Shown here piece after piece: positions 3,435 to 48,520 of a stretch of DNA of 64,000 nucleotides. The translations under genes were made by a program, and so were the position numbers. Source of the DNA: Candidatus Chisholmbacteria bacterium (GTDB lineage: Bacteria; Patescibacteriota; Microgenomatia; UBA1400; Chisholmbacteraceae). The stretch is from the NCBI GenBank assembly GCA_963704905.1, contig CAVPHZ010000001.1:65547-129546 (forward strand). Reading direction: 5' to 3'. Numbering within the stretch: the first letter of the stretch is position 1; each line of letters begins with the position of its first letter. A model generated the notes under the pieces. It had not been told where the DNA came from and did no database searches. It was given only the letters and a program-made list of their open reading frames with translations.

Positions 3435-3436
3435 CA

Positions 3437-17225: not shown

Positions 17226-17292
17226 ATGTCTAAGTTATTAGAAACATTTCGTAAAGTCAATTCCAAATAAAGAATGTTGTATATTGGTTTTA

Positions 17293-18855
17293 ATGAATAA
17301 GAAAAGGATTGGTATTGTTGTTGGAATTTTTGGATTTGTATTGCTTCTATTTTTGATTCCTGGACTAGTAGACAAGGGCAGCAAACCTGATTCAGGTGAT
17401 TCCAACTCTTCTTCTGAAGCAACTCTTCAACAAGTAAGTGTTAGAAAAGCGGCAGTATCCGGACAGTTTTATCCAAAAGATCAAGATGAGCTGAAGGAAA
17501 CTATCACAGGGTATCTGTTAAGCGCTGCTAAACAAAACAGTGAAATTAAACCAAGGATACTATTTGCTCCCCACGCCGGATTAGAATTCTCTGGAAAAAC
17601 TGCTGCATATGCTTATAAGCAAATAGAAGGTCACCAATACTCGAGGGTAATTATCCTTAGTGGAAATCATCATCATAAGAGTAAAAAAGCTGCGGTATAT
17701 GATCAGGGATCTTGGGAAACACCACTTGGTGCTGTTGATGTCGATGAAACCATTGGTCTTATGCTTATTGATGAGGAGAAAAGTATTATTTCGAATCCAA
17801 CTATGTTCACTCAAGATCATACGATTGAAATGGAGATACTCTTTCTTCAATCCGTACTAAATGACTTTAAAATTGTACCAATTCTTCTTGGTCAGGTAGA
17901 TGAAAGTGTCATCGAAGCGTTAGCACAGAAGCTCTACGAAATCATGGATGAGAACACACTGATTGTAGTAAGTACTGACCTTTCCCACTATCCAACATGG
18001 GAAGTTGCTAACCAAGTTGATCATCAGACGATTAATGCAATTGTCGGTGGTAGTCGGGAAACTTATCTCAATTCAGTTGAACATTTAACTCAAGAATATG
18101 CTTCACAAATCGATACTCATGCATGTGGAACCAAAGCCGTTGAGGTTGCACTGCAAACTGCTGAACTACTTGAGATATCAGACTTTGAGCTGATTGTTTA
18201 TTCAAATTCTGGAGATATTACAGGTGATCATTCTCGAGTTGTTGGGTATGCTGCAATTGTTGCTAGCAAAGATCATCTTCCTGGTTCATTTCTTAATGAA
18301 TCAGCAAAGAAAGAGGCGCTGGCTATTGCTCGAGAAACACTTGAGTCATATTTGACAGGTGGCGGCACGCCTCAATTTTCACCACATTCACGGTATCTCT
18401 ATTTTCCCCTTGGTGCATTTGTTACTCTGGAGAATGGTGATCAGCTTCGAGGTTGTATTGGTCATTTTGAACCTGCCATACCACTCCATAGAGTCATCCA
18501 GCAGGCAGCGATTGATGCGGCAACCAAGGATCACCGTTTTAAAAATGTCACTTCGTCCGAGATGAATGAGATTGAGATTGAAGTATCAATCATGACACCT
18601 CGGAGGAAAATAGACTCTTGGGAAGAAATCGAACTTGGCAAGCATGGTGTAGTTGTGCAAAAATCTAAAATATCTGGTACTTTTTTACCTCAGGTTGCAA
18701 CCGATACCGGGTGGAGCAAGGAAGAATTCTTAAAAGAGCTTTGTAGTCAGAAAGCCGGTCTTGCCAGAAATTGCTACCAAGACCCTTCGGTTGCACTTTA
18801 TGTATTTGAAGCACAGATTTTTGCAGATTATGAAGTCTCGGGATCACATATCTGA
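17293..18855 (+). CDS. Memo (AmmeMemoRadiSam protein B-like) - AMMECR1 fusion protein with N-terminal signal anchor
   Basis: N-terminus 'MNKKRIGIVVGIFGFVLLLFLIPGLV' followed by a Ser-rich linker. Memo motifs are 'LFAPHAGLEFSGKTAA', 'VIILSGNHH', 'DHTIEMEILFLQ...FKIVPILLG' and 'VVSTDLSHYP'. The C-terminal half has the AMMECR1 signature 'LRGCIGHFEP' at nt 18436-18474. Confidence 0.7.
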   Translation: MNKKRIGIVVGIFGFVLLLFLIPGLVDKGSKPDSGDSNSSSEATLQQVSVRKAAVSGQFYPKDQDELKETITGYLLSAAKQNSEIKPRILFAPHAGLEFSGKTAAYAYKQIEGHQYSRVIILSGNHHHKSKKAAVYDQGSWETPLGAVDVDETIGLMLIDEEKSIISNPTMFTQDHTIEMEILFLQSVLNDFKIVPILLGQVDESVIEALAQKLYEIMDENTLIVVSTDLSHYPTWEVANQVDHQTINAIVGGSRETYLNSVEHLTQEYASQIDTHACGTKAVEVALQTAELLEISDFELIVYSNSGDITGDHSRVVGYAAIVASKDHLPGSFLNESAKKEALAIARETLESYLTGGGTPQFSPHSRYLYFPLGAFVTLENGDQLRGCIGHFEPAIPLHRVIQQAAIDAATKDHRFKNVTSSEMNEIEIEVSIMTPRRKIDSWEEIELGKHGVVVQKSKISGTFLPQVATDTGWSKEEFLKELCSQKAGLARNCYQDPSVALYVFEAQIFADYEVSGSHI

Positions 18856-18861
18856 GCTAAC

Positions 18862-19545
18862 TTAATCTCCCTTAGCTGCTGTCGCGCATAGATTACATCC
18901 TCTTAGCATGTTAGATTTGTTTCCTTTTCGATCGACATAAAAGATATCAGTATTTTTAAACCCTGCTTCGTTAAGAAGTTTTCTCAAATACGCTTTATCA
19001 AACGCTACGTAAAATCTATTCCATTTATTTTGGTAGGGTTCATACAAGTATCGCCAATTTTTTCGTTTGAGTTTCAAGCTTTCTTTGGAAAAATGAGTAT
19101 CTAAATGACGAAAGTTCAGAAAATTCCATACAGAAATGTTGAGTACCCCTCCGTTTTTTAAGATAGATCTCGATTTATTTAGAACATACAATTGCTTTTT
19201 TCGCTCAGAAATGTGATGGAGTACAGCAATACAAAAGATAGCATCAAACTTAGGCAACCCTTTCCATACTTTTGACTTTGTGATATCCCCGTAGATAAAT
19301 TTTCGTTCAGGGTGTATATGTCGAGCATTCTTGAGAAGTGTCTTTGAAAAATCGATACCAATATATTCCACATTATTTTTTATTCCTGTCAGCAACCTTC
19401 CATTTCCACAACCAAGATCTAAGAGTTGATCACCACTTTTTAATTTTTCAAGTTCTTTCAATGTTTCCGGCCATACAAAACGCCTAGTTTTGCTAAAATG
19501 TTCTGCAATCTGGTTATATGTATCTTTTACCTGGTCTTGAATCAT
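18862..19545 (-). CDS. Class I SAM-dependent methyltransferase
   Basis: Motif I is 'LLDLGCGNGRLL' and motif post-I is 'EYIGIDFS'. The start codon overlaps the Elp3 start on the other strand. Confidence 0.75.
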   Translation of the reverse strand: MIQDQVKDTYNQIAEHFSKTRRFVWPETLKELEKLKSGDQLLDLGCGNGRLLTGIKNNVEYIGIDFSKTLLKNARHIHPERKFIYGDITKSKVWKGLPKFDAIFCIAVLHHISERKKQLYVLNKSRSILKNGGVLNISVWNFLNFRHLDTHFSKESLKLKRKNWRYLYEPYQNKWNRFYVAFDKAYLRKLLNEAGFKNTDIFYVDRKGNKSNMLRGCNLCATAAKGD

Positions 19546-21097
19546 GACATTATCACAACTTCTCTTAAGAGATTTTACGAAACTTTCAGAGAAAAATCTT
19601 TCTCAATATAAAAGACGTTGGGCAAAGTCCTTGGGTCATACTCCAAAGAATTCGAGTATACTCTCGACGTATTTTCGCCTCGTAGATCAAGGTGAGATCA
19701 ACCGTAATCAAAGTCTTGAAAGGCTATTTCAGGTAAAAAGCATGAGAAGTGTTTCCGGTGTAACACCTATGGCTGTGATGACTAAGGCATTTTATTGTCC
19801 CGGACAATGCACCTTCTGCCCAATTGATCTCAACCTTCCAAAAAGTTATTTGCGAGATGAGCCAGCTGCACAGAGGGCTTTGAAAGTGAACTTTAATCCG
19901 TATGAACAAGTCCGTAATCGTCTTAGACAGCTGGCATTAACTGGGCATGTAACAGATAAAGTTGAGCTGATTGTAATTGGTGGAACTTTCTCGGTGTACT
20001 CTAAAGAGTACAGGCGGTCTTTTTTTAAAGGATTGTTTGATGCGTGCAACGGCATTCAAAGCAAAACACTAAAAGCTGCTCAAAAGAAAAATGAATCCGC
20101 CAAACATCGCATTGTTGGCATTAGTATCGAGACACGGCCTGACTGGATTGATGAAAAAGAAGTTCGCCTGCTACGCGAGCTTGGAGTAACAAAACTCCAA
20201 GTTGGTGTTCAAGCTTTTGACCCTGTGATACTCAAGAAGGTGAAACGAGGACACTCTTTGAAACCTGTAGCAAATGCGACGCTGATGCTACGTAATGCTG
20301 GATTTAAGATTTGCTATCACTTCATGCCAAATCTTCCTGGGTCTAATCCAGAGAAAGATGTCGAAATGGCAAAAGTAATGTATCAGGATTCGCGGTTTAA
20401 GCCTGATTTTGTGAAAATTTATCCCACACAAGTGATACCTCGAACAGAGTTGTATGAACAATGGAAGCGAGGAGAATTCAGGACATATGATGATGAAATA
20501 ATGAAAGAAGTGCTTAAAAAGATAAAACTTATCACTCCACCTTGGGTTCGTATTGATCGGCTAGTACGAGATATCTCAAAGCAATGGGTTGCAGGAGGCA
20601 CGCTGCAGACTAATATGCGTCAGGTGATCCAACAGGAACTAGCTATGGAAGGCAAGCAATGTCAATGTATTCGATGCAGGGAGGTGAAAAGAAAGCTCTC
20701 TAACGAAACACCTCGTATGAAACGGATTACTATCGATACACTGGGTGGCACAGAAGTGTTTCTTGAGTATTCAACTGGAAAACATCTCTATTCTTTGTTG
20801 AGGATGCGACTGCCGAATGAAAAGCAAACGATGCTGTTTACTGAACTGAACGGTGCCGCGATTATTAGGGAAATCCATACCTATGGAGGTGTAGTTCCGG
20901 TTAATGAAAAACAGGATGACAGAGCTCAACATACGGGGTTTGGCAAGTCACTGCTTGAAAGAGCAGAAAGAATAGCAACAAAGAACGGTTTTAAGAAGGT
21001 TGCTGTCATTTCAGCGATTGGAACTCGTAATTATTATCGCAAGCTTGGTTATCTGCTTGAAGGTATGTATATGTTGAAACACCTTGCTAGTGATTAA
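19544..21097 (+). CDS. Elp3-family radical SAM + GNAT protein (tRNA uridine-34 carboxymethylation / acetyltransferase homolog)
   Basis: The Elp3 N-terminal signature is 'RSVSGVTPMAVMTKAFYCPGQCTFCP', with CxxxCxxC at nt 19791-19824. The C-terminal GNAT has 'QHTGFGKSLLERAERIA' (QHxGxG). Confidence 0.75.
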   Translation: MTLSQLLLRDFTKLSEKNLSQYKRRWAKSLGHTPKNSSILSTYFRLVDQGEINRNQSLERLFQVKSMRSVSGVTPMAVMTKAFYCPGQCTFCPIDLNLPKSYLRDEPAAQRALKVNFNPYEQVRNRLRQLALTGHVTDKVELIVIGGTFSVYSKEYRRSFFKGLFDACNGIQSKTLKAAQKKNESAKHRIVGISIETRPDWIDEKEVRLLRELGVTKLQVGVQAFDPVILKKVKRGHSLKPVANATLMLRNAGFKICYHFMPNLPGSNPEKDVEMAKVMYQDSRFKPDFVKIYPTQVIPRTELYEQWKRGEFRTYDDEIMKEVLKKIKLITPPWVRIDRLVRDISKQWVAGGTLQTNMRQVIQQELAMEGKQCQCIRCREVKRKLSNETPRMKRITIDTLGGTEVFLEYSTGKHLYSLLRMRLPNEKQTMLFTELNGAAIIREIHTYGGVVPVNEKQDDRAQHTGFGKSLLERAERIATKNGFKKVAVISAIGTRNYYRKLGYLLEGMYMLKHLASD

Positions 21098-23811: not shown

Positions 23812-24189
23812 TTAGCTGTTGAGTTGTTTCTTCACTCGTTTTACAACGTCTTTAAGTGACATATCTGATTTGACGATATACTCATCTGCACCTAGTTGCT
23901 TTGCTCTGTTAATCTCCTCTTCCCTACTTAAATTTGATATGACGATGACTTTGGTTTTTGGGTGCTCCAGATGAATGATATTTAAGACATCATAACCGCC
24001 CAACCCTGGCATGAGAATATCCAATAGTATAAGATCAAACGATTGTTTTTCTAAGGTTTTGAGTGCCTGCACACCATCAGAAGCAACTTGCGCCTTCACC
24101 CCCTCATTGTTAAGTAATTCATTTAATGCGCTTGCAATCGGTTTTTCGTCTTCGACTATTAATACACGTTTCTTATGTTTCATTATCAA
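23812..24189 (-). CDS. Stand-alone response-regulator receiver (CheY-like) protein
   Basis: 'VLIVEDE', 'DLILLDILMPG' and 'VIVISN...K'. No output domain. Confidence 0.8.
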   Translation of the reverse strand: MIMKHKKRVLIVEDEKPIASALNELLNNEGVKAQVASDGVQALKTLEKQSFDLILLDILMPGLGGYDVLNIIHLEHPKTKVIVISNLSREEEINRAKQLGADEYIVKSDMSLKDVVKRVKKQLNS

Positions 24190-24598
24190 TCTCCTCTTTA
24201 ATGTTGGATGTATCTTGTTTTGATTGTAATAATATTTTTACCTCCTCTACTATCTGATCAAGGCTATAGTTTGATTTTATGAAGTATTTTGATATTCCAA
24301 TGTCAGAATAAGACAACACTCTTCCTGACCAGCCAACGTTTGAAACAACAATTATCGGAATATCTTTAAACTGCTCCTGTTTCTTGATCCGAGTGATGAG
24401 TTCCGCTCCTGTTAGATCTCCAGGAAGATAGTGATCGAGCCAAAATAAATCAATTCTTGGCGCATTTTGAAGCATTAGGAGTGCACCTTCAGCGGTTTTT
24501 GAAGTGAGAACCTTATATCCCTTCTCTCCAAGTTTATCTTGAATAGCATCAAGAAGCGTTTTATCGTCCTCGACGACACAGATCGTAAAGTTATTCAT
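24173..24598 (-). CDS. Stand-alone response-regulator receiver protein
   Basis: 'ICVVEDD', 'DLFWLDHYLPG', 'IIVVSN'. It overlaps both neighbouring genes, indicating an operon. Confidence 0.8.
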   Translation of the reverse strand: MNNFTICVVEDDKTLLDAIQDKLGEKGYKVLTSKTAEGALLMLQNAPRIDLFWLDHYLPGDLTGAELITRIKKQEQFKDIPIIVVSNVGWSGRVLSYSDIGISKYFIKSNYSLDQIVEEVKILLQSKQDTSNIKEEIDNET

Positions 24599-24601
24599 TG
24601 T

Positions 24602-26536
24602 TTACTCCAATTTTTTCTTACCTGCTTTTTTATTCATTCCTTTTGTAGGTATAGTCAGGGTAAATATTGTTCCTTTATTTTCCACAGAGGAAAACCAAAT
24701 TTCTCCTCCAATGTGATCTAGAATCGATTTTACTATATATAATCCTAAGCCTGTACCTGATGTATCTTTTTTCCGTACGTTATCGGCTCTGTATAGTTTT
24801 GAAAATATCTGGTTTTGTTGATCTTTTGGAATTCCATACCCCGTATCTTCTATGATAATTGCTATACTATCTTCCTTCGTTTTGTGATGATCTATTTCAT
24901 GGCCTTTTCTGATCTGCTTGGTAGTTATTGAGACTATTCCTTGTTGAGGCGTATATTTCACAGCATTTGATATGAGATTTTGCAAAATCATCCGAGTTAA
25001 TTTCGGATCCAATGGAATCTTTTTGGTTTTTTCGTACTTCTTTACTAGCTTTATTTTCTTCTCTTTAATTTGCGGTTTTAATTCTTGAGTGATGGAATCT
25101 ATGAGTTCGGTAATTTCAATATTTTCTGGCTCGACTGAAAATGTTCCTAACTCTAATCTTGAGACATTGAGGAGTGCGTTCACTAGATCAATCATTCGCA
25201 GGTTTGACTTGTAAATTTCTTCGATTCTTTCTTTCTGTTTTGTTGTAAGATTTTGTTTATTTGCAAGAAGCATTTCAGAATACCAACGTATGGTTGAAAG
25301 AGGTGTTCGAAGTTGGTGGCTTGCCAGAGAAACAAATTCTGACTTTGCCTTATCTATCGCCCTTTCTCTTGAGATATCCCTAAAGATAATTGCTGTTCCA
25401 ATAGTTTTTCCGTGTAATTGAACTGGTGAGACGGTAATAGCAACTGGAAATGTGACTCCGTTATTCTTTCTCAGTGACAGATTACCAACCCTAATTGTCT
25501 TGCCATTTCTTAATACTTGATTAATTGGTAAATTTTCATTTTGAATTCCTTGTCCGTTTTTATCAATGACTGCATCTTTTCCTAAGAAGTCTGGCCAGAC
25601 TTGACCAATGGGTTGATCGTTTAGATCTAACATTTGTCTAGCCGATTCGTTCATGAGGACTATTTTTCTCTGCTCATCCGCTACAACCAGACCGTCGCCC
25701 ATACTTTTTAATATTGCCTCATCTTTGGCTTTTGCTTGTGCAAGCTGTGACGTACGCTCACGAACTTTATGCTCAAGACCTTCGTATAAACTCTTTAACT
25801 CTTCTGTCATTGTGTTAAAAGCTCTTGCTAATTCACCAATCTCGTCTTTTGATTTTGCATCGTCGAGTCTAATGGTGAGATTTCCGTGAGCAATTTCTTT
25901 CGTAGTTTCCACAACACTTGTTAATCTCCTACTAATCCCTCTCATGAGGATTAAGAAATTTCCTATCATCACAAGCGCTAAAAATGTCATCCCTCCGAGA
26001 GCTATGAATCCTCTAGTTTGCGTGGTGGCAACTACTTCTTGGCTTTCAAGCCTATCGAGTTCGAGCGCATTTGCCACAATAAGCTCTGCTCGTATGAATA
26101 GTTTCTCAAAGGATTGATATGTTGTAATGTTTCCACTATTTTTATCCTCTTCAGTTTCTTGATTAACATCTTGAACTAACTCATCAAAGGCAATTTCCAT
26201 TCCAGTGATGTCTTCATGTATCTGGGAAGCTATTTCATTTGTAGATCTTGATTGTAATGCTAGGGAGGACATTTTCTGTTGAATTTGTTTGAGATTTTCT
26301 TTCCACTGTTCTTGTATTTGCTCGTCTGGTTCGATGAGATAATTTGTCGTTTGTACATTTAATGAGATTGTTTCCTTCATTACCTGATTAATTATTGCTC
26401 GCTGCTGTTCAATACGCGCTATTCGCTGTGCGAATGCGTAAAATGATACGAATACTATTGATGCAACAACGAGAGAAATCAGGAAGCTCAGTGTAATTTT
26501 TGTTTTTATTGTCATTATGGCAGTATGAGGTAGCAA
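24602..26536 (-). CDS. Membrane sensor histidine kinase (TM-HAMP-PAS-HisKA-HATPase_c)
   Basis: H-box 'ASHQLRTPL'; N/G boxes 'SNAVKYT', 'DTGYGI', 'GTGLGL'. The N-terminus has a TM pair and a HAMP-like segment. Confidence 0.85.
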   Translation of the reverse strand: MLPHTAIMTIKTKITLSFLISLVVASIVFVSFYAFAQRIARIEQQRAIINQVMKETISLNVQTTNYLIEPDEQIQEQWKENLKQIQQKMSSLALQSRSTNEIASQIHEDITGMEIAFDELVQDVNQETEEDKNSGNITTYQSFEKLFIRAELIVANALELDRLESQEVVATTQTRGFIALGGMTFLALVMIGNFLILMRGISRRLTSVVETTKEIAHGNLTIRLDDAKSKDEIGELARAFNTMTEELKSLYEGLEHKVRERTSQLAQAKAKDEAILKSMGDGLVVADEQRKIVLMNESARQMLDLNDQPIGQVWPDFLGKDAVIDKNGQGIQNENLPINQVLRNGKTIRVGNLSLRKNNGVTFPVAITVSPVQLHGKTIGTAIIFRDISRERAIDKAKSEFVSLASHQLRTPLSTIRWYSEMLLANKQNLTTKQKERIEEIYKSNLRMIDLVNALLNVSRLELGTFSVEPENIEITELIDSITQELKPQIKEKKIKLVKKYEKTKKIPLDPKLTRMILQNLISNAVKYTPQQGIVSITTKQIRKGHEIDHHKTKEDSIAIIIEDTGYGIPKDQQNQIFSKLYRADNVRKKDTSGTGLGLYIVKSILDHIGGEIWFSSVENKGTIFTLTIPTKGMNKKAGKKKLE

Positions 26537-35398: not shown

Positions 35399-35779
35399 TC
35401 AGTTATTGGCGTAAACACGCAATACTTCTCGAATTGTATTTACCAGTTCTTCCATAGAAGTATCAGCTTTCACAAGAAGGCGGTACGCTCCAAGTGAAAC
35501 TACTTTTGCCACTTTTTCACCTTCAGCTAGGTTAGTAAAAACAATAACTGGAGTTTTTGATTTTAATTCACTTGCTCTTAAATGTTCTAAAAACCAGACT
35601 CCATCAGTCTCAGGCATAACGACGTCGAGGATAATACAGTCAACATCATTTTGTTCAAGCTTTTCCCAACCGTCTTTACCATTTATTGCTGTAATGATTT
35701 TTAATCCAGCTTTTTCTAATTTGATTTGGATTGGTTTGATCAAATCAGGGTCGTCTTCAATCACCAGGATTGTCTTCAT
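35399..35779 (-). CDS. Stand-alone response-regulator receiver protein (paralog of 23812-24189)
   Basis: 'ILVIEDD', 'DCIILDVVMPETDG', 'VIVFTN'. Confidence 0.8.
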   Translation of the reverse strand: MKTILVIEDDPDLIKPIQIKLEKAGLKIITAINGKDGWEKLEQNDVDCIILDVVMPETDGVWFLEHLRASELKSKTPVIVFTNLAEGEKVAKVVSLGAYRLLVKADTSMEELVNTIREVLRVYANN

Positions 35780-36177
35780 TTCTTTCCTCTCTTTGAGAGA
35801 AGCCGATTAATTTCATATATAATCTCATCCAAGCGTTTCTCGGCTTTGATGAAGTATTTGTGTACTCCGAGTGCCATCATCGTAGCAACTTTTTCTGGCC
35901 CGGCAGTGTTGCTGACTACAAAGACAGGTATACTTTTGTATTTTGGATTTTCTTTAATCTTGGTTAAAAACTCTAATCCATTCATAGATGGCAAGTAATA
36001 GTCTAGCCAGATGACGTCCGGTCTATTTTTCGGATCTTGTAACAATTCTAATGCTTCTTCTGCGCTAGTTGCTGCTACAGTTTCAAAACCAGTTTTTTCA
36101 AGCTTCTTTTGAATAGCCATTTTTAAAGTTCGCTCATCTTCAACTATAAGAACTCGATTGAAAGATTTGCTTATCAT
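35776..36177 (-). CDS. Stand-alone response-regulator receiver protein (paralog of 24173-24598)
   Basis: 'WLDYYLPSMNGLEFLTKIKENPKYKSIPVFVVSN...KYFIKA' parallels 'WLDHYLPGDLTGAELITRIKKQEQFKDIPIIVVSN...KYFIKS'. Confidence 0.8.
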   Translation of the reverse strand: MISKSFNRVLIVEDERTLKMAIQKKLEKTGFETVAATSAEEALELLQDPKNRPDVIWLDYYLPSMNGLEFLTKIKENPKYKSIPVFVVSNTAGPEKVATMMALGVHKYFIKAEKRLDEIIYEINRLLSKRGKK

Positions 36178-36204
36178 AGTTTCCTTTCTTGTCTAAGTGT
36201 ATCT

Positions 36205-38499
36205 TTATAGGTAAGCATCTTCAAGTGTTCGCTCTCCTTTTTTTGGAGGAGTGCCTGATAATGGGAGAGTAAACCAAAATGTTGTTCCTTTACCTTCTTT
36301 TGATTCAAACCAAATTTTACCTCCAGAAGATTGAACTACCGACTTGACGATGTAAAGTCCTAAGCCAGTCCCGTCTGGAATTACGGATCGAATGTTATCA
36401 GCACGGAAAAATTTATTAAACACTCTCCCTTGCTGATCCTCAGGTATTCCAACTCCATTATCTTGAATTTGAGATATAACGTCGTCTCCTTTTTTTGAAA
36501 TATAGATTTGGATTTCGCCATTTTCCGGTGTGTATTTCACTGCATTTGATATGAGATTTGCATATACTTGTCTGACAAGCTTAGGATCTACTGATATTTT
36601 TGGGAGTTGTTTGTGCTTACTTACTATTATGTGAAGTTTCTTTTCTTTGATTTTTGGAGTGAGCTCAACAATTACCTGATCAATGAGTTTAATAAGATCA
36701 ATTATTTCTGGTTCTATGGTTATTCTTCCCTGTTCAATTCTTGAAACATTAAGAAGAGCATTCACCAGTTCGATCATGCGATCGTTTGAGTCATACATTT
36801 GCTGAACGTATTCCTTCTGTTCTTTGTTAAGCTTCCCTGCATCACCAGAAATGAGCATTTCCGCAAACCAGCGAACTGCAGAAAGAGGAGTTCTCAGCTG
36901 ATGCGAAGCAACTGAAATAAACTCTGTCTTCATTCTGTCTACAGCCTTTTCTTTGGTGATATCTCTTTCTATCCCAACGAAATATTTCACTTCTCCTTTC
37001 ACGTCAAGAATCGGTGAGATGCTCAATGCGGCAATATATGTTTTTCCATTTTTCTTTTTATTTGTCACTTCTCCTTGCCACTTTTGTCTCTTCTTGTGAA
37101 TCGTCGTCCACATATGGTTGTAATACTTCTCATCCATCTGTCCGCCCCAAAGATTTTTTCCAGGATTTTGACCCATGACTTCAACTCGAGTATATCCAGT
37201 ATTCATCACCATTGCTTCGTTTGCATAGATAATTATCCCCTTTGCATCGGTAATGATTATTTGATCTGATGCATTTTCAACGGCTTGTAAAAATTTCTTC
37301 AAATCATCTGCAAGTCGTTCGGAGGTTTCTTTTTCTTTTTCAAGCTCGGCTGTTCGTACCTGCACCCGTTGCTCAAGTTTTCCATAAAGTCCACTCAGCT
37401 CAACAGCCATTCTTCTGAACTCCTGAGCAAGTCGTTCCACCTCATCTCCTGTATCAATATTTAATTGGTAGTCCCATTTCCCTTTTGCGATTTCTTCAGC
37501 CCCTTTCTGCAGTTTTTTTAAAGGTTCTGATATCGTGCGGCTTACTAAGTAAGCGACCAATGAAAAAAGAGCGAGTGTGAGTACTGACACGCCGATTAGT
37601 TCTTGTCTCAGTTGATCTAGCGGTGCAAATACTTCCTCAGCGTCTTGTTTAACCACTAGACCCCAACCTGCAACTAATGGGTTACCATAGGTGGCGATTA
37701 CGTCAACACCTCTATAATCTCTGGTCCTCTCTGTTCCGGATAGACCTTGAGTTGCAAGAACAATGGGGGCTCGTGAATTTTCTTCTATTTTTATCCTATT
37801 TGAGTACTCAGCATTAGAAGCATTGGTTGGTTTATTTATCAAAATAATTTCTTCTCCTTCTCGTTTTCCGAGTAAAACTTCACCGCTTTTTCCCAGACCG
37901 GTAAAATCGTTTGCAATATTTTGAATGGCATTCAGCTTCATGGTTGCGATCAAATAATGAGAAGATTCAAAGCTTAACTGCACTGATCTTTTTACAAAGA
38001 GAGAAGTTCCATTTTCAATAATTCCTACATCTGTATCTTTGTCGAGTACAGCTTTAGATTCCCAATGTTGTTGATTACTATTTCCAGATCTGGAAGATGC
38101 AGAAACTGTTCCTTCAGGTGAGATTATTGCTATCTCGTCAAACGTGGAATTGTTTACAACTGCAGTAGTTAGAATATCTAGAATATCATTCTGAGTATTT
38201 GCATTGCTTACCGCAGCTTTGGTCGCTATATTGCTTACTGTATTTGAAAGTAACTCTACTTCCTTTCTGTACATATTCACTGTCACATCTAACTGGTCTT
38301 GCTTAATACTTATAATTGATTCTACTTGCTTGAATGCTTGATCGCTAAGAAGGTTTTGTGCATTTCGAAAACTCAGATATGATAGAAGAATAACTACGGG
38401 AGTTGTGATCAATGCAATGATGAGGGTTAACTTTGATTGAATGGTGCTCAATCGATGATGTTTCAATCTTGTCTTTTGGTAGTGAGCAGTGTTTTGCAT
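36205..38499 (-). CDS. Membrane sensor histidine kinase with large extracytoplasmic (Cache-like) domain, HAMP, PAS, HisKA, HATPase_c
   Basis: Two TM segments flank an extracytoplasmic domain of about 270 aa. H-box 'ASHQLRTPL'; 'SNAVKYT', 'DNGVGI', 'GTGLGL'. Confidence 0.85.
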   Translation of the reverse strand: MQNTAHYQKTRLKHHRLSTIQSKLTLIIALITTPVVILLSYLSFRNAQNLLSDQAFKQVESIISIKQDQLDVTVNMYRKEVELLSNTVSNIATKAAVSNANTQNDILDILTTAVVNNSTFDEIAIISPEGTVSASSRSGNSNQQHWESKAVLDKDTDVGIIENGTSLFVKRSVQLSFESSHYLIATMKLNAIQNIANDFTGLGKSGEVLLGKREGEEIILINKPTNASNAEYSNRIKIEENSRAPIVLATQGLSGTERTRDYRGVDVIATYGNPLVAGWGLVVKQDAEEVFAPLDQLRQELIGVSVLTLALFSLVAYLVSRTISEPLKKLQKGAEEIAKGKWDYQLNIDTGDEVERLAQEFRRMAVELSGLYGKLEQRVQVRTAELEKEKETSERLADDLKKFLQAVENASDQIIITDAKGIIIYANEAMVMNTGYTRVEVMGQNPGKNLWGGQMDEKYYNHMWTTIHKKRQKWQGEVTNKKKNGKTYIAALSISPILDVKGEVKYFVGIERDITKEKAVDRMKTEFISVASHQLRTPLSAVRWFAEMLISGDAGKLNKEQKEYVQQMYDSNDRMIELVNALLNVSRIEQGRITIEPEIIDLIKLIDQVIVELTPKIKEKKLHIIVSKHKQLPKISVDPKLVRQVYANLISNAVKYTPENGEIQIYISKKGDDVISQIQDNGVGIPEDQQGRVFNKFFRADNIRSVIPDGTGLGLYIVKSVVQSSGGKIWFESKEGKGTTFWFTLPLSGTPPKKGERTLEDAYL

Positions 38500-41901: not shown

Positions 41902-42924
41902 TTATTTCGAAATCTTCTCCATTAAGTGTAGTGTTTCTGTCTTCTTATTTTCTGTTACCGGTACAATAACTACTCCGTGTTCGAAATGTCCATATATTAC
42001 AACTGCATTAAGCGGGGCAGCTAATATACACGGTAACACAGCCAAATCTTCCTCTCCAATAACCTCTATTACCACTGGGCTATTATGTATCTGTTCAAGC
42101 AATAGAATTGAAAGATCTGATGTAATTGTTCCCGCAGGGTTTATTACTTTGTTATGTTGAATATTATTTGGCCACCGATATTCCGAAATATCCTTATATT
42201 TTCGTTTCCTTCTTACATGAAGGTCCACAATTGATACATCTGGCAATGTTCCTATCGCTAATAATGAACTCGTAACATCATCTCCAACACTTACAATAGG
42301 CGATAATTTCTCAGTTCTAACGAAATTCATTACTTTATGAATAACTTCATTAGAATCCTTTACGTCACCGAGAATAATTTTCCCGTATGGCTCTCTAAAC
42401 GTAGCACGATGCTTTCGAGATATAGTAATAGGAGCAGCATTTAAGAGTTTGGTTGAGTAATGCTCTCCTTCTCTGGAGATATAACCTTGTCGGATCCTGG
42501 TTGAAGAGATTGGCTTTCCGTCTTCAGCTAAAGTTAGTTCGCAGTTGAAAAGTTTGAGAGGTCTTAAATTCAATTCTCTTCGCTGTTGATTAATCCTTTT
42601 TCCTCCGACTCTCGTATTTTCGGTAACGAGTAGAGCTTCTAAAAACCTATCGTGAGTGGTTGGACCATATGGATCTGATAAGGTGATTATCTCTGAGTTC
42701 TTTTCTGTTTGTGTCTGATGTAAATAGCTTTTTACGCTTTCCCTTCTTTGTTTATATGGTTGAAGTAATTCATTATAATGCACTTTTCGTGCATACGATT
42801 CATCGGTAACACCGATTGTTACTTTTTTTGAAATTGAAAATGCATTATTTAGAAAGTGGCGATGTCCTTTATGAAACCTGTCAAATGTTCCACCTAAGGC
42901 GAGGTGTTTAATTTTCTTTCCCAT
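41902..42924 (-). CDS. Fusion of archaeal-type phosphopantetheine adenylyltransferase (COG1019) and DUF359 GTP-dependent dephospho-CoA kinase (COG1909)
   Basis: The N-terminal half has 'LALGGTFDRFHKGHRHFL' (T/HxGH nucleotidyltransferase) and 'DGKPISSTRIRQG'. The C-terminal half has 'VGDDVTSSLL', 'NPAGTITSDL' and 'VIEVIGEEDLAVLPCILAAP...VIYGHFEHGVVIVPV', which is DUF359-like. The alternative start 42966 overlaps gltX. Confidence 0.6.
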   Translation of the reverse strand: MGKKIKHLALGGTFDRFHKGHRHFLNNAFSISKKVTIGVTDESYARKVHYNELLQPYKQRRESVKSYLHQTQTEKNSEIITLSDPYGPTTHDRFLEALLVTENTRVGGKRINQQRRELNLRPLKLFNCELTLAEDGKPISSTRIRQGYISREGEHYSTKLLNAAPITISRKHRATFREPYGKIILGDVKDSNEVIHKVMNFVRTEKLSPIVSVGDDVTSSLLAIGTLPDVSIVDLHVRRKRKYKDISEYRWPNNIQHNKVINPAGTITSDLSILLLEQIHNSPVVIEVIGEEDLAVLPCILAAPLNAVVIYGHFEHGVVIVPVTENKKTETLHLMEKISK

Positions 42925-42940
42925 TGGCTGGGGACTATTT

Positions 42941-44377
42941 TTATTCTTGAAGTGTGGTTGCGGCATGTTTAAGCCTTTTCATTGATTCTTTTTTTCCCAA
43001 TATTTCCAGGCTCTCAAATAATGGAGGACTGATTTCTTTCCCTGTAATTGCGACTCTTAATGTCATAAATACTTTTCTTGTTGACCAGTTATTTGATATG
43101 AGTGATCTTGTTTTTGATTCTAGTTCTATTGTTTTGAAACTCTCATTCTTCACAGACTTTAAAAGCTCATTAGCTTTTATAATAAGTCTCTTCGTTTCAT
43201 TCGCATTGTGCTTGCTCTGTTTAAGAAGATTTTCCGCTGTTGGCTTCGGCGCAGTGAAAAAGAATTCGGAATACTCTTTGAATTCACTTAGCGTGTGAAT
43301 TCTTTCTTTAACGAGTGGTATTATTTTCATCACAATCATTTTTTTTGATTCCTTCGGCAAGAAATCTGTAAGTTCGTTGTATAACTCTCCATTGTTCATG
43401 TTTCTAATATAGCGGCCATTCATCCAGGTAAGCTTTTCAATATCGAATATTGGTTGGGTGGTTTTTATTCTTTTAAGAGAGAATTTACTGACATATTCTT
43501 TGAGTGAAAATATTTCCTTTTCCTCGGGATGAGACCACCCTAATAAAGCTAGATAGTTGACTAAAGCTTTTGGAAGATATCCATGTTCTTTATACCAGGA
43601 AACCGAGACAGGATTTCGACGCTTAGAGAGCTTTGAACGATCTGGATTTCGCAGGAGTGGAGTATGTGCATATATTGGAAGCTTCCACCCAAATGCTTTG
43701 TAGATTAAAATATGCTTCGGAGTTGAAGAAATCCACTCCTCTGCACGAATAACATGTGATATTTTCATCAAATGATCATCAACTACTACAGCAAGGTGAT
43801 AGGTTGGATAACCATCTGACTTGAGAATTATCTGGTCGTCTATTGTAATATTTTCAAAGCTGATTTCTCCTCTAATGACATCATTCCAGCTTGTATTTCC
43901 TGACTTTGGTATATTGAATCGGATAACATGTTTTTCCTTTTTTGACCTATCTTGAGCTATTTTTTTGTCGATATGCTTACATTTTCCATCGTACATTGAA
44001 AGTTTTCCGGCTTTTTGTTGTGCTTTTCGCATTGCAGATAATCTCTCAGAGGAGCAAAAGCAATAATATGCAAATTGATTATGAACTAATTCTTCAGCAA
44101 ATTTTCTATACAGCTCCAGTCGTTTCGATTGTGTATATGGAGCGTATTTCCCGCCGATATCAGGTCCTTCGTCGTACTTAATTCCGAGCCATTGAAGCGA
44201 CTTATATATAATAGTTTCAGCACCAGGGACGTATCGATCACGGTCTGTATCTTCGATACGCAGTACAAATTTTCCTTTATTATTTTTTGAAAATACGTAG
44301 TTGATTAGCGCTGTATACATGTTTCCAACATGCGCAATACCGGTTGGGCTTGGTGCGATTCGAGTTCTGACTTTCAT
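42941..44377 (-). CDS. gltX: Glutamate--tRNA ligase
   Basis: 'RIAPSPTGIAHVGNMYTAL' is a HIGH-like motif. 'VLRIEDTD' is present. The KMSKS equivalent is 'KLSKR'. Confidence 0.9.
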   Translation of the reverse strand: MKVRTRIAPSPTGIAHVGNMYTALINYVFSKNNKGKFVLRIEDTDRDRYVPGAETIIYKSLQWLGIKYDEGPDIGGKYAPYTQSKRLELYRKFAEELVHNQFAYYCFCSSERLSAMRKAQQKAGKLSMYDGKCKHIDKKIAQDRSKKEKHVIRFNIPKSGNTSWNDVIRGEISFENITIDDQIILKSDGYPTYHLAVVVDDHLMKISHVIRAEEWISSTPKHILIYKAFGWKLPIYAHTPLLRNPDRSKLSKRRNPVSVSWYKEHGYLPKALVNYLALLGWSHPEEKEIFSLKEYVSKFSLKRIKTTQPIFDIEKLTWMNGRYIRNMNNGELYNELTDFLPKESKKMIVMKIIPLVKERIHTLSEFKEYSEFFFTAPKPTAENLLKQSKHNANETKRLIIKANELLKSVKNESFKTIELESKTRSLISNNWSTRKVFMTLRVAITGKEISPPLFESLEILGKKESMKRLKHAATTLQE

Positions 44378-46554: not shown

Positions 46555-48405
46555 TTATTTTGAAAATGAACCAATTGTTGGGTTGACAATTTTTTCATAG
46601 TCTTGATATCTCATATCTATTGATTGGCTGTGAAGACCTGCATTGAAACTGATAGTTTTTTGGGTTTTAAGTTTCTCATCAACATATACCGGTAATTCAA
46701 ATATGTTTCCAAACGGAGGAATCGCACCAATCTCAATACCAGTTATTTCTATAACTTCTTGGGCTGATGCCATATGTAAGTCTTTCACGTTATATAATTT
46801 TTTAAAGGTCTTGTTGTCGATTCTTGTTGCTGCAGAAAGCACAAGCATCGCTGGTTTCTTGTCGGTATACATGATGAGTGCTTTTGCGCCTTGTTCTAAT
46901 TTTGTGCCTCGGACCTTGGCTGCTTGTTCGCTAGTGTAAATAGGTTCGTGCTTATAGCTCTTGAACTTCGCTTTGTTTTTTTTCAGCAATTCAGATATTT
47001 TTTCCAAGACTTCTTCTCCTGTAAAAGTTGTCTGTTTGGAGATGACTTTAATGTGGAGCTCTTCCAGCTGTGCATCATCGAGTGTTGAGGGAGCATCCAT
47101 GATAGATGTTCTCCCTCTTCCCGTTTGTGGAAAAGCCTGTACTTCTCGTAAATAGTCCTCGCCAAAATATGCCATGAGTAAGCGTTCGAACCCTTGAGCG
47201 CATCCACCGTGGGGTGGCGTTCCATATTCAAATGCTTGTAACATATGTCCAAATTGGTCTTCAATCTGCTCGTCAGAATACCCTAATATTTCAAATACCG
47301 ACCGGAGCACCTCCGGTCTATGAGAGCGAATGCTCCCCCCAGAAACCTCAAGGCCATTGCATACCAAGTCATATTGTGAAGTGATAATATTTCCAATGTT
47401 CTTTTTTTCAAGCAGCCATTTTTCGTGGTCCTCAGATACAGGTTGAGAGAATGGATTGTGAGTAAATGTCCAATTTCCTTCACCATCTTTTTCAAAAAAC
47501 GGAAAGTCAATAACCCATGCAAATGATAGAAGACCTTTCTCCTGTTCTTTGTTACTTCGCAGGTCAAATTTATCTGCTCCAAATTTTTTTAATGCTTCGT
47601 TGTAGGTAAACACCGGGAATGGTTTTTTTACTATTTTAGCGCCAATATTTTCTATAGCAAAAACTGTCATATCTTCGATCATTTGCATTACTTCTTTTCT
47701 TGTCGTAAAGCTCATTTCCATGTCAATTTGAGTATGTTCGAAACCTCTATCAGCTCTAGGATCCTCGTCTCTCAAGCAACGAGCTATTTGGAAGTATCGC
47801 TCAAAACCTGCTGTCATCAAGAGCTGTTTGTATTGTTGTGGACTTTGTGGAAGAGCAAAAAATTTCTCGGGTTGCAAGCGACTTGGTGTAATAAAGTCGC
47901 GAGAGCCTTCCGGTGTTGATTTTGTTAAAATTGGGGTTTCAATCTCGATAAAGTTATTTGAGAAAAGATACTCTCGAGCCGCTTGTACGTAGGCTGACCT
48001 CAACCTGATGTTTCTCTGTAATCGTTTTCGTCGCAAGTCTAAATATCTGTATTTTAATCGTATCTCTTCTTCGATGTTGTATCCATCGGTATCAAGAGGA
48101 AACGGCATCTCTTTTGACTGGTTGAGCACGACAACACTCAACTCCTCAACTTCAACAGTTCCTGTATGTAAATTTGGATTGATGAGATGGTTCGGGCGTC
48201 TTTTTACTCTGCCTTCAATTTCGACAACGAATTCGGGTCGGAGTCTTTTTAGATCTTTTCCACCCACTACTTGAACTAATCCTGTACGGTCGCGAAGATC
48301 GATAAATACAACTTTCCCATGATCACGCCTGGAATGAATCCAACCTTTAAGAAGTACTTTCTGTTCAATTTTATCTATGGTTTCACTCGCAAGCGTTCGA
48401 ATCAT
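46555..48405 (-). CDS. aspS: Aspartate--tRNA ligase (archaeal/eukaryal short type, no GAD insertion) fused to a C-terminal YbaK/ProX-like aminoacyl-tRNA deacylase domain
   Basis: The N-terminus has an anticodon-binding OB fold. Class II motifs are 'FERYFQIARCLRDED' and 'GGSIRSHRPEV...GTPPHGGCAQGFERLLM'. The core is about 445 aa. The last 170 aa or so contain 'ASAQEVIEITGIEIGAIPPFG', which matches YbaK 'ASPEEVEEITGYPVGGVSPFG'. Confidence 0.75.
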   Translation of the reverse strand: MIRTLASETIDKIEQKVLLKGWIHSRRDHGKVVFIDLRDRTGLVQVVGGKDLKRLRPEFVVEIEGRVKRRPNHLINPNLHTGTVEVEELSVVVLNQSKEMPFPLDTDGYNIEEEIRLKYRYLDLRRKRLQRNIRLRSAYVQAAREYLFSNNFIEIETPILTKSTPEGSRDFITPSRLQPEKFFALPQSPQQYKQLLMTAGFERYFQIARCLRDEDPRADRGFEHTQIDMEMSFTTRKEVMQMIEDMTVFAIENIGAKIVKKPFPVFTYNEALKKFGADKFDLRSNKEQEKGLLSFAWVIDFPFFEKDGEGNWTFTHNPFSQPVSEDHEKWLLEKKNIGNIITSQYDLVCNGLEVSGGSIRSHRPEVLRSVFEILGYSDEQIEDQFGHMLQAFEYGTPPHGGCAQGFERLLMAYFGEDYLREVQAFPQTGRGRTSIMDAPSTLDDAQLEELHIKVISKQTTFTGEEVLEKISELLKKNKAKFKSYKHEPIYTSEQAAKVRGTKLEQGAKALIMYTDKKPAMLVLSAATRIDNKTFKKLYNVKDLHMASAQEVIEITGIEIGAIPPFGNIFELPVYVDEKLKTQKTISFNAGLHSQSIDMRYQDYEKIVNPTIGSFSK

Positions 48406-48520
48406 AATTTTCTGATGGCTGTATTGTAACTTCTTCCCTGGTACTTGACAAGCCTGGCGCTCGAGATGAATCTCGAGCATCACTACTTTATTTCAATCAA
48501 AATTCTCTCTAGAAAATAGT

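What the first reader, a model, noticed from the sequence alone, without database searches (positions are those of the whole stretch)
41902..42966. Single polypeptide combining archaeal-type PPAT and DUF359 GTP-dependent dephospho-CoA kinase
The N-terminal half is a cytidylyltransferase-fold PPAT of the archaeal COG1019 type ('GGTFDRFHKGH', 'ISSTRIR'). The C-terminal half matches the DUF359 family ('GEEDLAVLP', 'NPAGTIT'), recently shown to be the archaeal dephospho-CoA kinase. This would place the last two CoA-biosynthesis steps on one protein, in archaeal form, in a bacterium. I am not aware of this fusion being described.
Basis: partly seen in the sequence, partly recalled or inferred. Interest (0 to 1): 0.55.

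Follow-up and report, generated by a model that had tools for sequence, protein, structure and literature searches.

The report
Archaeal-type PPAT–DPCK fusion in CPR bacterium
A small-genome bacterium of the Patescibacteria (CPR) group carries one gene that joins the archaeal versions of the last two enzymes of coenzyme A synthesis; the call is correct, but the same fusion was described in archaea in 2019 and is common in public CPR genomes, so it is a further bacterial example rather than a new kind of enzyme.

Summary
ORF 41902-42966 (-) encodes a 354-aa protein. Its N-terminal half is an archaeal/eukaryotic-type phosphopantetheine adenylyltransferase (NF001985, 153.9 bits vs cut-off 104). 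Its C-terminal half is DUF359, the GTP-dependent dephospho-CoA kinase family (PF04019, 109.3 bits vs 25). The HxGH and ISSTRIR motifs and the three Asp residues tested by mutagenesis in TK1697 are all present and invariant. An AlphaFold model (pLDDT 93.7) matches 8JVC and 3DO8.

The host is bacterial (bacterial GluRS, AspRS, RecJ, SecDF, peptidoglycan enzymes). The gene lies in an eight-gene block that is syntenic with a Patescibacteria MAG.

The novelty claim does not hold. Shimosaka et al. 2019 identified the archaeal DPCK because arCOG04076 is fused to PPAT in uncultured archaea. I found the same fusion in Micrarchaeota, in MGII Poseidoniaceae, and in at least 150 (up to about 670) 50 %-identity clusters. 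Those that carry names are mostly Microgenomates-type CPR, and NCBI labels them only "pantetheine-phosphate adenylyltransferase". No paper I could search mentions the bacterial occurrence.

Absence of canonical coaD/coaE could not be tested beyond the 64-kb window, which has none. Verdict: a new bacterial member of a known kind, of modest interest.

The parts
41902..42966 (-). Whole gene: bifunctional archaeal-type PPAT / DUF359 dephospho-CoA kinase, 354 aa
   Evidence: ORF list; Pfam and NCBIfam; AlphaFold2 model pLDDT 93.7, pTM 0.89
42457..42915 (-). PPAT domain, aa 18-170 (archaeal/eukaryotic type, nucleotidyltransferase fold)
   Evidence: NF001985 153.9 bits over aa 18-170 against cut-off 104; 3DO8 E 2e-23; Foldseek TM(target) 0.81-0.87 to 3DO8, about 0.6 to bacterial CoaD
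42862..42873 (-). HKGH, the (H/T)xGH nucleotidyltransferase signature, aa 32-35
   Evidence: Coordinates verified; H32, G34 and H35 are invariant in 63 fusion proteins from CPR and archaea
42490..42510 (-). ISSTRIR, the ISSTxxR nucleotide-phosphate-binding motif of the PPAT domain, aa 153-159
   Evidence: Coordinates verified; S155 invariant, I153/S154/R159 at least 90 % conserved; aligned to ISSTRIK of 3DO8
42421..42456 (-). Short junction between the domains, aa 171-182 (no real linker)
   Evidence: The spacing between conserved G167 and P193 is 23-27 residues in nearly all of 63 fusions from CPR, Micrarchaeota and MGII
41911..42420 (-). DPCK domain, aa 183-352 (DUF359 / arCOG04076 family)
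   Evidence: PF04019 109.3 bits; NF041125 aligned over aa 183-352; 8JVC E 8e-17; Foldseek E 1.8e-14, TM(target) 0.83-0.87 to 8JVC/8JVG
42280..42282 (-). D229, equivalent to catalytic D48 of TK1697 (VGD motif)
   Evidence: Residue mapping from the HMMER alignment to 8JVC; the D48A mutant is impaired (PMC6650551); invariant in 63 sequences
42223..42225 (-). D248, equivalent to catalytic D67 of TK1697
42046..42048 (-). D307, equivalent to D125 of TK1697, within GEEDLAVLP (42031-42057)
42121..42141 (-). NPAGTIT motif of the DPCK domain, aa 276-282
   Evidence: Coordinates verified; N276 at least 90 % conserved; aligned to NPPGTIT of TK1697
42941..44377 (-). Upstream gene gltX (bacterial-type glutamyl-tRNA synthetase). 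Its last 26 nt overlap the fusion's start, so the two are probably co-transcribed
   Evidence: TIGR00464 gltX_bact 535.7 bits against cut-off 290; junction sequence with GAAAAGG 7-13 nt upstream of ATG 42966; the same overlap occurs in the relative L081
41492..41899 (+). Convergent downstream neighbour, pterin-4a-carbinolamine dehydratase. It is not functionally linked but belongs to the conserved synteny block
   Evidence: NF002019/NF002017; conserved position in L081 at 66 % identity

Best explanation
The gene encodes a bifunctional 'CoA synthase' of archaeal ancestry in a Patescibacteria (CPR) bacterium. The N-terminal domain (aa 18-170) is an archaeal/eukaryotic-type phosphopantetheine adenylyltransferase, which converts 4'-phosphopantetheine + ATP into dephospho-CoA + PPi. 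The C-terminal domain (aa 183-352) is a DUF359/arCOG04076 kinase, which phosphorylates the 3'-OH of dephospho-CoA to give CoA. By analogy with TK1697 it probably uses GTP. The two domains are joined head to tail with almost no linker and are predicted to pack into one compact body, so the product of the first site is made next to the second. The gene is probably co-transcribed with gltX and has been inherited vertically in this lineage.

Shown here: domain identities, conservation of catalytic residues, fold, bacterial host, recurrence of the fusion, and synteny. Inferred: enzymatic activities, GTP as donor, an archaeal origin by inter-domain transfer of an already fused gene (probably exchanged with DPANN Micrarchaeota), and the idea that it serves as the organism's terminal or salvage route to CoA.
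For: Domain profiles are above curated cut-offs. Sequence matches to the solved structures are 3DO8 2e-23 and 8JVC 8e-17.

HxGH and ISSTxxR are present. D229/D248/D307 correspond to D48/D67/D125 of TK1697, which were tested by mutagenesis, and all are invariant in 63 fusions from CPR and archaea.

The AF2 model has pLDDT 93.7 and pTM 0.89. Foldseek gives TM 0.83-0.87 to 8JVC/8JVG and 0.81-0.87 to 3DO8.

The context is bacterial: gltX_bact, aspS_bact, RecJ, DacA-like PBP, SecDF, GreA, amidase_3. The block CCA-RecJ-AspRS-PBP-hyp-GluRS-fusion-PCD is collinear with a Patescibacteria MAG (GCA_022564195.1), with neighbours 52-74 % identical and the fusion 45 % identical. GC (0.370) and GC3 (0.285) are at the low end of the range of nearby genes (GC 0.365-0.434, GC3 0.307-0.367).

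The same architecture occurs in true archaea: L004, Ca. Norongarragalina (Micrarchaeota), flanked by archaeal CCA enzyme, GatE and Elp3, and MGII Poseidoniaceae. It also occurs in at least 150 clusters at 50 % identity.

The PPAT half is 50 % identical to a stand-alone Asgard PPAT, as close as to its own CPR relatives.

The published rationale and the biochemistry and genetics of TK1697 and TK2128 are in PMC6650551.
Against: No activity has been measured for any bacterial member. GTP versus ATP preference cannot be read from the sequence with the information available, because the 8JVC paper is not in the library.

The clade-specific NCBIfam equivalogs are far below their cut-offs (NF041125 79 bits against 300; NF041124 85 bits against 290), so orthology to the Thermococcales enzymes in the strict sense is not established.

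Whether the genome also has canonical CoaD/CoaE, or any upstream CoA enzyme, is unknown. Only 64 of about 773 kb was seen.

The deep nodes of my NJ trees have under 50 % bootstrap, so the direction and number of inter-domain transfers are not resolved.
Confidence: 0.85

Rival explanations
1. The fusion is a redundant or auxiliary copy. The genome also encodes canonical bacterial CoaD and CoaE elsewhere, and this gene is an accessory horizontally acquired paralogue rather than the organism's route to CoA.
For: Only 8 % of the roughly 773-kb contig was examined, so absence is untested.
Against: No coaD(bact)/coaE/coaBC/PanK in the 64-kb window, and no coaBC in any of the 51 fusion loci. The gene has been retained with all catalytic residues across hundreds of divergent CPR clusters and sits in a conserved housekeeping block. 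Together these argue for purifying selection on an essential function, and small CPR genomes rarely keep duplicates (general knowledge).
Confidence: 0.15
2. One or both domains have drifted to a different substrate. For example, the nucleotidyltransferase half could act on FMN, NMN or a sugar phosphate, or the DUF359 half could phosphorylate something other than dephospho-CoA (it is distantly related to thiamine pyrophosphokinases).
For: PF01467 is a broad superfamily. There are weak hits to FAD synthetase and NMNAT models. The DUF359 family has been characterised biochemically in a single archaeon. Equivalog cut-offs are not met.
Against: The best full-domain match is the PPAT subfamily model, above its cut-off, while other nucleotidyltransferase models score 11-36 bits. 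The structural best hits are PPAT and DPCK. The three functional Asp residues are invariant. The fusion of two consecutive pathway steps is itself the published functional argument. In the tri-domain relatives a separate, recognisable NMNAT domain is added rather than replacing PPAT.
Confidence: 0.08
3. Artefact: archaeal DNA was mis-assembled or mis-binned into a bacterial contig, or two adjacent genes were falsely joined by a sequencing error.
For: Both halves are archaeal in type, and CPR and DPANN co-occur in the same samples (general knowledge).
Against: The gene overlaps bacterial gltX by 26 nt. Composition matches the neighbours. The identical arrangement occurs in independent assemblies from NCBI and ENA. 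The single uninterrupted reading frame recurs in over 150 divergent clusters with a constant junction length.
Confidence: 0.01

Closest known systems
PPAT-arCOG04076 (DUF359) fusion proteins of uncultured archaea (e.g. AIF21550.1, MGII/III; Micrarchaeota such as Ca. Norongarragalina meridionalis), described in Shimosaka et al. 2019 mBio (PMC6650551)
   Same: Same two domains in the same order, same near-linkerless junction (23-27 residues between conserved G and P) and same invariant catalytic residues. Alignable end to end at 26-37 % identity. In the full-length NJ tree the Micrarchaeota fusions interleave with the CPR clades.
   Different: The host is a bacterium (Patescibacteria) rather than an archaeon. 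The gene is embedded in a bacterial housekeeping block and overlaps bacterial gltX. The 2019 paper reports homologues only in archaea.
Stand-alone archaeal enzymes: TK1697 GTP-dependent DPCK (PDB 8JVC/8JVF/8JVG) and archaeal PPAT (TK2128; A. fulgidus 3DO8)
   Same: Each half is homologous to, and has the same fold as, its stand-alone counterpart. D48/D67/D125 equivalents are conserved. The PPAT half is up to 50 % identical to stand-alone archaeal PPATs.
   Different: Here the two are one polypeptide. In 28 archaeal PPAT loci examined (plus L058, which is labelled Ca. Acidoferrum) no DUF359 gene lies within ±6 kb. Thermococcales equivalog thresholds are not reached.
Eukaryotic CoA synthase (COASY): bifunctional PPAT + DPCK
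   Same: Same logic and same domain order (PPAT, then DPCK) for the last two CoA steps. The PPAT domain belongs to the same archaeal/eukaryotic type (own knowledge; the COASY domain content is stated in the abstract of PMC10899607).
   Different: The COASY kinase domain is a P-loop CoaE-type DPCK and ATP-dependent. Here the kinase is the non-homologous DUF359 Rossmann-like fold, and there is no PF01121 hit. The architecture is therefore convergent, not homologous.
Canonical bacterial CoaD and CoaE
   Same: Same two reactions. CoaD shares the nucleotidyltransferase superfamily fold (TM about 0.6).
   Different: Bacterial CoaD (TIGR01510) scores only 13.6 bits against a cut-off of 103. CoaE is unrelated in fold. 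In typical bacteria these are separate genes.

Membership tests
Archaeal/eukaryotic-type PPAT (COG1019; NCBIfam NF001985 / PRK00777) | Profile score above the curated family cut-off over the whole domain | tested here: met
   153.9 bits against cut-off 104, aa 18-170 matching profile positions 3-153 of 157
Archaeal/eukaryotic-type PPAT (COG1019; NCBIfam NF001985 / PRK00777) | (H/T)xGH and ISSTxxR nucleotidyltransferase signatures | tested here: met
   HKGH aa 32-35 and ISSTRIR aa 153-159; invariant or nearly invariant in 63 homologues
Archaeal/eukaryotic-type PPAT (COG1019; NCBIfam NF001985 / PRK00777) | Fold of a solved archaeal PPAT | tested here: met
   Foldseek hit to 3DO8: E 4e-9, TM(target) 0.81-0.87, rmsd 2.1 Å for chain B
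Archaeal/eukaryotic-type PPAT (COG1019; NCBIfam NF001985 / PRK00777) | Adenylyl transfer to 4'-phosphopantetheine | not testable with these tools
   Needs an enzyme assay or complementation
GTP-dependent dephospho-CoA kinase (Pfam PF04019 DUF359 / arCOG04076) | Pfam profile above the gathering score, full-length domain | tested here: met
   109.3 bits against 25, profile positions 1-125 of 126
GTP-dependent dephospho-CoA kinase (Pfam PF04019 DUF359 / arCOG04076) | Three conserved Asp residues shown by mutagenesis to matter in TK1697 (D48, D67, D125) | tested here: met
   D229, D248 and D307 align to them (mutants) and are invariant in 63 sequences
GTP-dependent dephospho-CoA kinase (Pfam PF04019 DUF359 / arCOG04076) | Fold of the solved TK1697 structure | tested here: met
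   8JVC/8JVG: E about 1e-14, TM(target) 0.83-0.87, 30 % identity
GTP-dependent dephospho-CoA kinase (Pfam PF04019 DUF359 / arCOG04076) | Strict equivalog to the Thermococcales enzyme (NF041125 cut-off) | tested here: not met
   79.3 bits against cut-off 300. This model is clade-specific; failing it excludes membership of that narrow equivalog, not of the DUF359 family
GTP-dependent dephospho-CoA kinase (Pfam PF04019 DUF359 / arCOG04076) | GTP as preferred phosphate donor; dephospho-CoA as acceptor | not testable with these tools
   The paper on the solved complexes (8JVF/8JVG) is not in the library, and no specificity determinants were available to map
PPAT-DUF359 bifunctional fusion (as in MGII and Micrarchaeota archaea) | Both domains on one polypeptide, PPAT N-terminal, direct junction | tested here: met
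   Single ORF. The junction is 26 residues between G167 and P193, against 23-27 in the archaeal fusions. Full-length alignment to archaeal fusions
PPAT-DUF359 bifunctional fusion (as in MGII and Micrarchaeota archaea) | Archaeal host (as described in the literature) | tested here: not met
   The host has bacterial GluRS, AspRS, RecJ, SecDF and peptidoglycan enzymes. This is a difference in taxonomic range, not in architecture
Eukaryotic COASY-type CoA synthase | C-terminal P-loop CoaE-type DPCK domain (PF01121) | tested here: not met
   No PF01121 hit even at E ≤ 1. The kinase half is DUF359
Bacterial CoaD (TIGR01510) | Equivalog score above cut-off | tested here: not met
   13.6 bits against cut-off 103.3

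The most novel reading that the evidence does not exclude
Microgenomates-type CPR bacteria as a group have no CoaD/CoaE and make CoA solely through this archaeal-derived, single-polypeptide, GTP-dependent CoA synthase, fed by 4'-phosphopantetheine salvaged from hosts or the environment. The gene would have been exchanged as a ready-made fusion between CPR bacteria and DPANN (Micrarchaeota) archaea. That would be the first non-CoaE DPCK operating in Bacteria and a clear inter-domain replacement of a universal cofactor step. It would also mean that an 'archaeal' CheckM marker (PF04019) is native to a large bacterial clade.
Probability: 0.4. Interest if true: 0.45.

Novelty: new member of a known kind. 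Interest (0 to 1): 0.3.

Why it matters
The finding is modest but useful in four ways.

1. Annotation. NCBI's pipeline names these proteins only "pantetheine-phosphate adenylyltransferase". The CoA pathway of many CPR genomes will therefore look as if it lacks its last step. Recognising the DUF359 half as DPCK closes that gap.

2. Taxonomic range. The founding paper describes arCOG04076 as an archaeal family. At least 150 divergent clusters carry this fusion, and those with names are mostly bacterial, so the non-CoaE DPCK is not confined to Archaea.

3. Genome quality tools. PF04019 is used as an archaeal single-copy marker in CheckM. Its native presence in CPR bacteria is relevant to domain assignment and contamination estimates for mixed CPR/DPANN bins.

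4. Evolution. It adds a clean example to the list of genes shared between CPR and DPANN. It also suggests a minimal two-step CoA salvage module for ultra-small symbionts, convergent with eukaryotic COASY.

Tried and rejected
- Exact look-up of the window protein's contig failed: not on record. The cluster carries no name. The source organism is therefore inferred from synteny with GCA_022564195.1 and from the names of homologues.
- Separate NJ trees of each half, with archaeal PPATs and TK1697 as outgroups, were too poorly resolved to date or orient the transfer. The full-length tree firmly supports only shallow clades: window + P0002-P0017 at 96 %, and the MGII core at 99 %. My 'all fused monophyletic' support value for the C-half is an artefact of having a single outgroup and is not used.
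- The gltX linkage was tested as a possible conserved operon. It holds only in the close subclade, not in 80 distant loci, so no functional link to gltX is claimed.
- I looked for CoA-pathway neighbours. There are none in the window. CoaBC is adjacent to PPAT only in four loci with an archaeal-type stand-alone PPAT (three labelled Bathyarchaeota/Bathyarchaeia; L058 labelled Ca. Acidoferrum), and never next to a fusion.
- Literature searches for CPR/Patescibacteria/Microgenomates with PPAT, DPCK or CoA biosynthesis returned only irrelevant microbiome papers. An exact-word search for DUF359 returned only Makarova 2019.
- I tried to obtain the 8JVC structure paper to map GTP-specificity residues, but it is not in the library.
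- I considered recent horizontal acquisition or an assembly chimera. Both were rejected on composition, the overlap with gltX and synteny in independent assemblies.
- There are no tRNA or Rfam features in the window to help with taxonomy.
Full report
**1. The observation**

The window contains an uninterrupted 354-codon ORF at 41902..42966 on the minus strand.

- Pfam gives PF01467 (CTP_transf_like) over aa 24-160 (44.6 bits, gathering 21). It gives PF04019 (DUF359) over aa 231-352, covering the whole profile (109.3 bits, gathering 25, E 1.2e-31).
- NCBIfam places aa 18-170 in NF001985, the archaeal-type pantetheine-phosphate adenylyltransferase subfamily, above its curated cut-off (153.9 against 104 bits). 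It aligns aa 183-352 end to end with the Thermococcales GTP-dependent dephospho-CoA kinase model, though far below that clade-specific cut-off (79 against 300 bits). The bacterial CoaD model scores only 13.6 bits.
- Against the PDB by sequence, the two halves hit 3DO8 (PPAT, 2e-23) and 8JVC (GTP-dependent DPCK of T. kodakarensis, 8e-17).

**2. Catalytic apparatus and fold**

In the PPAT half, the HxGH signature (H32-K-G34-H35) and ISSTRIR (aa 153-159) are present.

In the kinase half, the HMMER alignment to 8JVC lets me number TK1697 directly. D48 (VGD), D67 and D125 (GEED) correspond to D229, D248 and D307. Ala replacement of these three residues impaired complementation of the T. kodakarensis ΔTK1697 strain: D48A and D67A dramatically, D125A more mildly (PMC6650551).

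In alignments of 27 CPR homologues and of 63 homologues spanning CPR, Micrarchaeota and MGII, H32, G34, H35, S155, D229, D248 and G304-E-E-D307 are invariant.

An AlphaFold2 model built on the 63-sequence alignment is confident throughout (mean pLDDT 93.7, pTM 0.89; only residues 1-8 are disordered). The pTM value suggests a defined packing of the two domains.

Foldseek against the PDB ranks the TK1697 structures first (8JVC/8JVG, E about 1e-14, TM normalised to target 0.83-0.87). The A. fulgidus archaeal PPAT 3DO8 comes next (TM 0.81-0.87), and bacterial CoaD structures are well behind (TM about 0.6).

**3. The host is a bacterium of the CPR**

The flanking genes are bacterial:
- gltX_bact (536 bits, cut-off 290), aspS_bact, bacterial RecJ, a DacA-like D-Ala-D-Ala carboxypeptidase and a bacterial CCA enzyme;
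- further out, SecD/SecF, GreA, a MurNAc-L-Ala amidase, ThyA/DHFR and several two-component systems.

The start ATG at 42966 lies 26 nt inside the end of gltX, with GAAAAGG 7-13 nt upstream. An alternative ATG (M15, 42924) would leave both domains intact. GC and GC3 of the gene (0.370 and 0.285) sit at the low end of the range of nearby genes.

The 100 %-identical database entry sits on a 772,908-nt contig but carries no name.

A 45 %-identical homologue (P0009, 'Patescibacteria group bacterium', GCA_022564195.1) lies in the same gene order: CCA, RecJ, AspRS, PBP, hypothetical, GluRS, fusion (again overlapping gltX), Pterin_4a. This is seen in independent NCBI and ENA assemblies. The neighbours are 52-74 % identical to those of the window.

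This shows stable vertical inheritance in a CPR lineage and excludes an assembly chimera.

**4. How common is the fusion, and where?**

- All 120 listed homologues of the window protein carry both Pfam domains. The names given by sources are Patescibacteria, Curtiss-, Levy- and Roizmanbacteria, usually just 'pantetheine-phosphate adenylyltransferase'.
- An exhaustive phmmer search of 1.84 billion 50 %-identity representatives finds 4695 hits at E ≤ 1e-3 and 672 at E ≤ 1e-30. All of the best 150 are matched over both halves (lengths 313-523 aa). The 672 probably include some stand-alone archaeal PPATs, so the number of fusion clusters lies between 150 and about 670.
- In one genome per GTDB species, 551 relatives were confirmed. 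Of the best 80 loci, 51 encode both halves contiguously. These are labelled Levy-, Roizman-, Gottesman- and Beckwithbacteria (including the complete genome CP011210.1), one 'Saccharibacteria', one 'Paceibacterota', a number of TPA assemblies labelled 'uncultured Gammaproteobacteria' that I regard as doubtful labels, and one archaeon.
- The other 29 loci, nearly all archaeal (Bathyarchaeia, Asgard, Odin, methanogens), have a stand-alone PPAT with no DUF359 within ±6 kb.
- The archaeal fusion locus L004 is truly archaeal: an archaeal CCA enzyme, GatE and Elp3 flank it. It belongs to Ca. Norongarragalina meridionalis (Micrarchaeota). Searching with it recovers more Micrarchaeia fusions, CPR fusions, and the MGII Poseidoniaceae fusions.

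**5. What is already known**

[quoted passage not shown] They then showed GTP-dependent DPCK activity and CoA auxotrophy for TK1697. Makarova et al. 2019 say the same of DUF359 domain fusions.

So the architecture is not new; it is the founding observation of the family.

The same paper reports that PSI-BLAST retrieved nothing apart from arCOG04076 members, which it describes as present in nearly all archaea. None of my literature searches found a paper that mentions this enzyme in CPR/Patescibacteria. The bacterial occurrence therefore appears to be visible in databases but not discussed, within the limits of the library searched.

**6. Origin**

The PPAT half is as similar to stand-alone archaeal PPATs (50 % to an Asgard enzyme, 45 % to Odin) as to its own CPR subclade (49-53 %). 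Both families are near-universal in Archaea; arCOG04076 is in the pan-archaeal core. An archaeal origin is thus the simplest inference.

The spacing between the last conserved PPAT glycine and the first conserved DPCK proline is 23-27 residues in nearly all fusions from all three lineages. This is compatible with a single fusion event, but it is also what a linkerless join would give by constraint.

In a full-length NJ tree (317 columns, 200 bootstraps):
- the window protein groups with P0002-P0017 (96 %);
- MGII forms a distinct long-branched group (core 99 %);
- the Micrarchaeota fusions interleave with CPR clades, but the deep nodes are below 50 %.

Trees of the separate halves are no better. 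I therefore infer, but have not shown, exchange of a ready-made fusion between DPANN and CPR. The direction is unresolved.

**7. Likely physiology**

Mechanistically the protein should convert 4'-phosphopantetheine to CoA in two steps on one polypeptide, as eukaryotic COASY does with a non-homologous (CoaE-type) kinase.

No PanK, CoaBC, CoaD(bact) or CoaE is encoded in the 64-kb window. No CoaBC lies beside any of the 51 fusion loci, whereas it does lie beside the stand-alone archaeal-type PPAT in four loci (three labelled Bathyarchaeota/Bathyarchaeia; L058 labelled Ca. Acidoferrum).

This is weakly consistent with a salvage-only terminal module in a reduced genome, but the whole genome could not be examined. 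Donor specificity (GTP) is assumed from TK1697.

**8. Verdict**

It is a new (bacterial) member of a known kind. Its value lies mainly in annotation (the DPCK half is unnamed by PGAP), in extending the range of the non-CoaE DPCK beyond Archaea, and as a caution that PF04019, an archaeal CheckM marker, is native to many CPR bacteria.

Noticed in passing
Proteins P0077, P0081, P0019, P0218 (relatives; the named members of P0077's cluster are Roizmanbacteria), not in the window: Variants of about 500 aa carry a third, N-terminal domain that matches archaeal-type nicotinamide-nucleotide adenylyltransferase (NF002243: P0081 130.7 bits against cut-off 127; P0077 118 bits). They are therefore NMNAT-PPAT-DPCK triple fusions, joining NAD and CoA terminal steps on one polypeptide. 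I did not find this architecture described.
   Followed up: partly
window 46555-48483 (-): The bacterial-type AspRS (642 aa) has an extra C-terminal YbaK/EbsC-like aminoacyl-tRNA deacylase domain (aa ~498-638, TIGR00011 62 bits). The syntenic AspRS in the relative L081 is only 471 aa and lacks it.
   Followed up: partly
window 9727-10521 (-), 17284-18855 (+), 19544-21097 (+): A Memo+AMMECR1 fusion protein (523 aa) lies close to a 517-aa radical SAM protein with a Radical_SAM_C domain (Elp3-like, or of the AmmeMemoRadiSam type). A second, shorter Memo-like gene lies further upstream. This is another gene set with archaeal/eukaryotic flavour in this bacterium.
   Followed up: no
window 10525-15753 (-): A very large (1742 aa) alpha-2-macroglobulin-like protein (A2M, MG2, Big_5 domains) in a genome whose contig is only about 773 kb.
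   Followed up: no
L058 3546-6486; also L061, L064, L069: Loci with a stand-alone archaeal-type PPAT have CoaBC immediately upstream of PPAT. L058 also has MfnA-type decarboxylase, giving MfnA-CoaBC-PPAT. L058 is labelled 'Candidatus Acidoferrum sp.' (a bacterial name) although its gene content looks archaeal.
   Followed up: partly
L003, L008, L009, L015, L018-L020, L027-L029, L035, L036, L039, L043, L046, L047, L073 and others: Many fusion-bearing TPA assemblies are titled 'uncultured Gammaproteobacteria' or 'Pseudomonadales', although their fusion proteins resemble those from labelled CPR genomes. The labels look like placeholders or mis-assignments. If they were real, the fusion would reach well beyond CPR.
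   Followed up: no
Literature: PMC8421398, PMC10134863: PF04019 (DUF359) is part of the CheckM archaeal marker set and is reported missing in several DPANN lineages. Its native presence in many CPR bacteria could affect domain-level quality estimates for mixed bins.
   Followed up: partly
window 2757-4492, 23812-26536, 35776-38499: There are three separate two-component signalling clusters (response regulators plus PAS/HAMP histidine kinases) within 64 kb, which seems rich for a genome of this size. No tRNA and no Rfam family was found anywhere in the window.
   Followed up: no
window 42457-42915 (PPAT half) vs L032 6001-6462: The PPAT half is 50 % identical to the stand-alone PPAT of an Asgard archaeon (Ca. 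Asgardarchaeum abyssi). This is as high as to its nearest CPR relatives and higher than to most CPR fusions (30-45 %). The kinase half evolves faster.
   Followed up: partly
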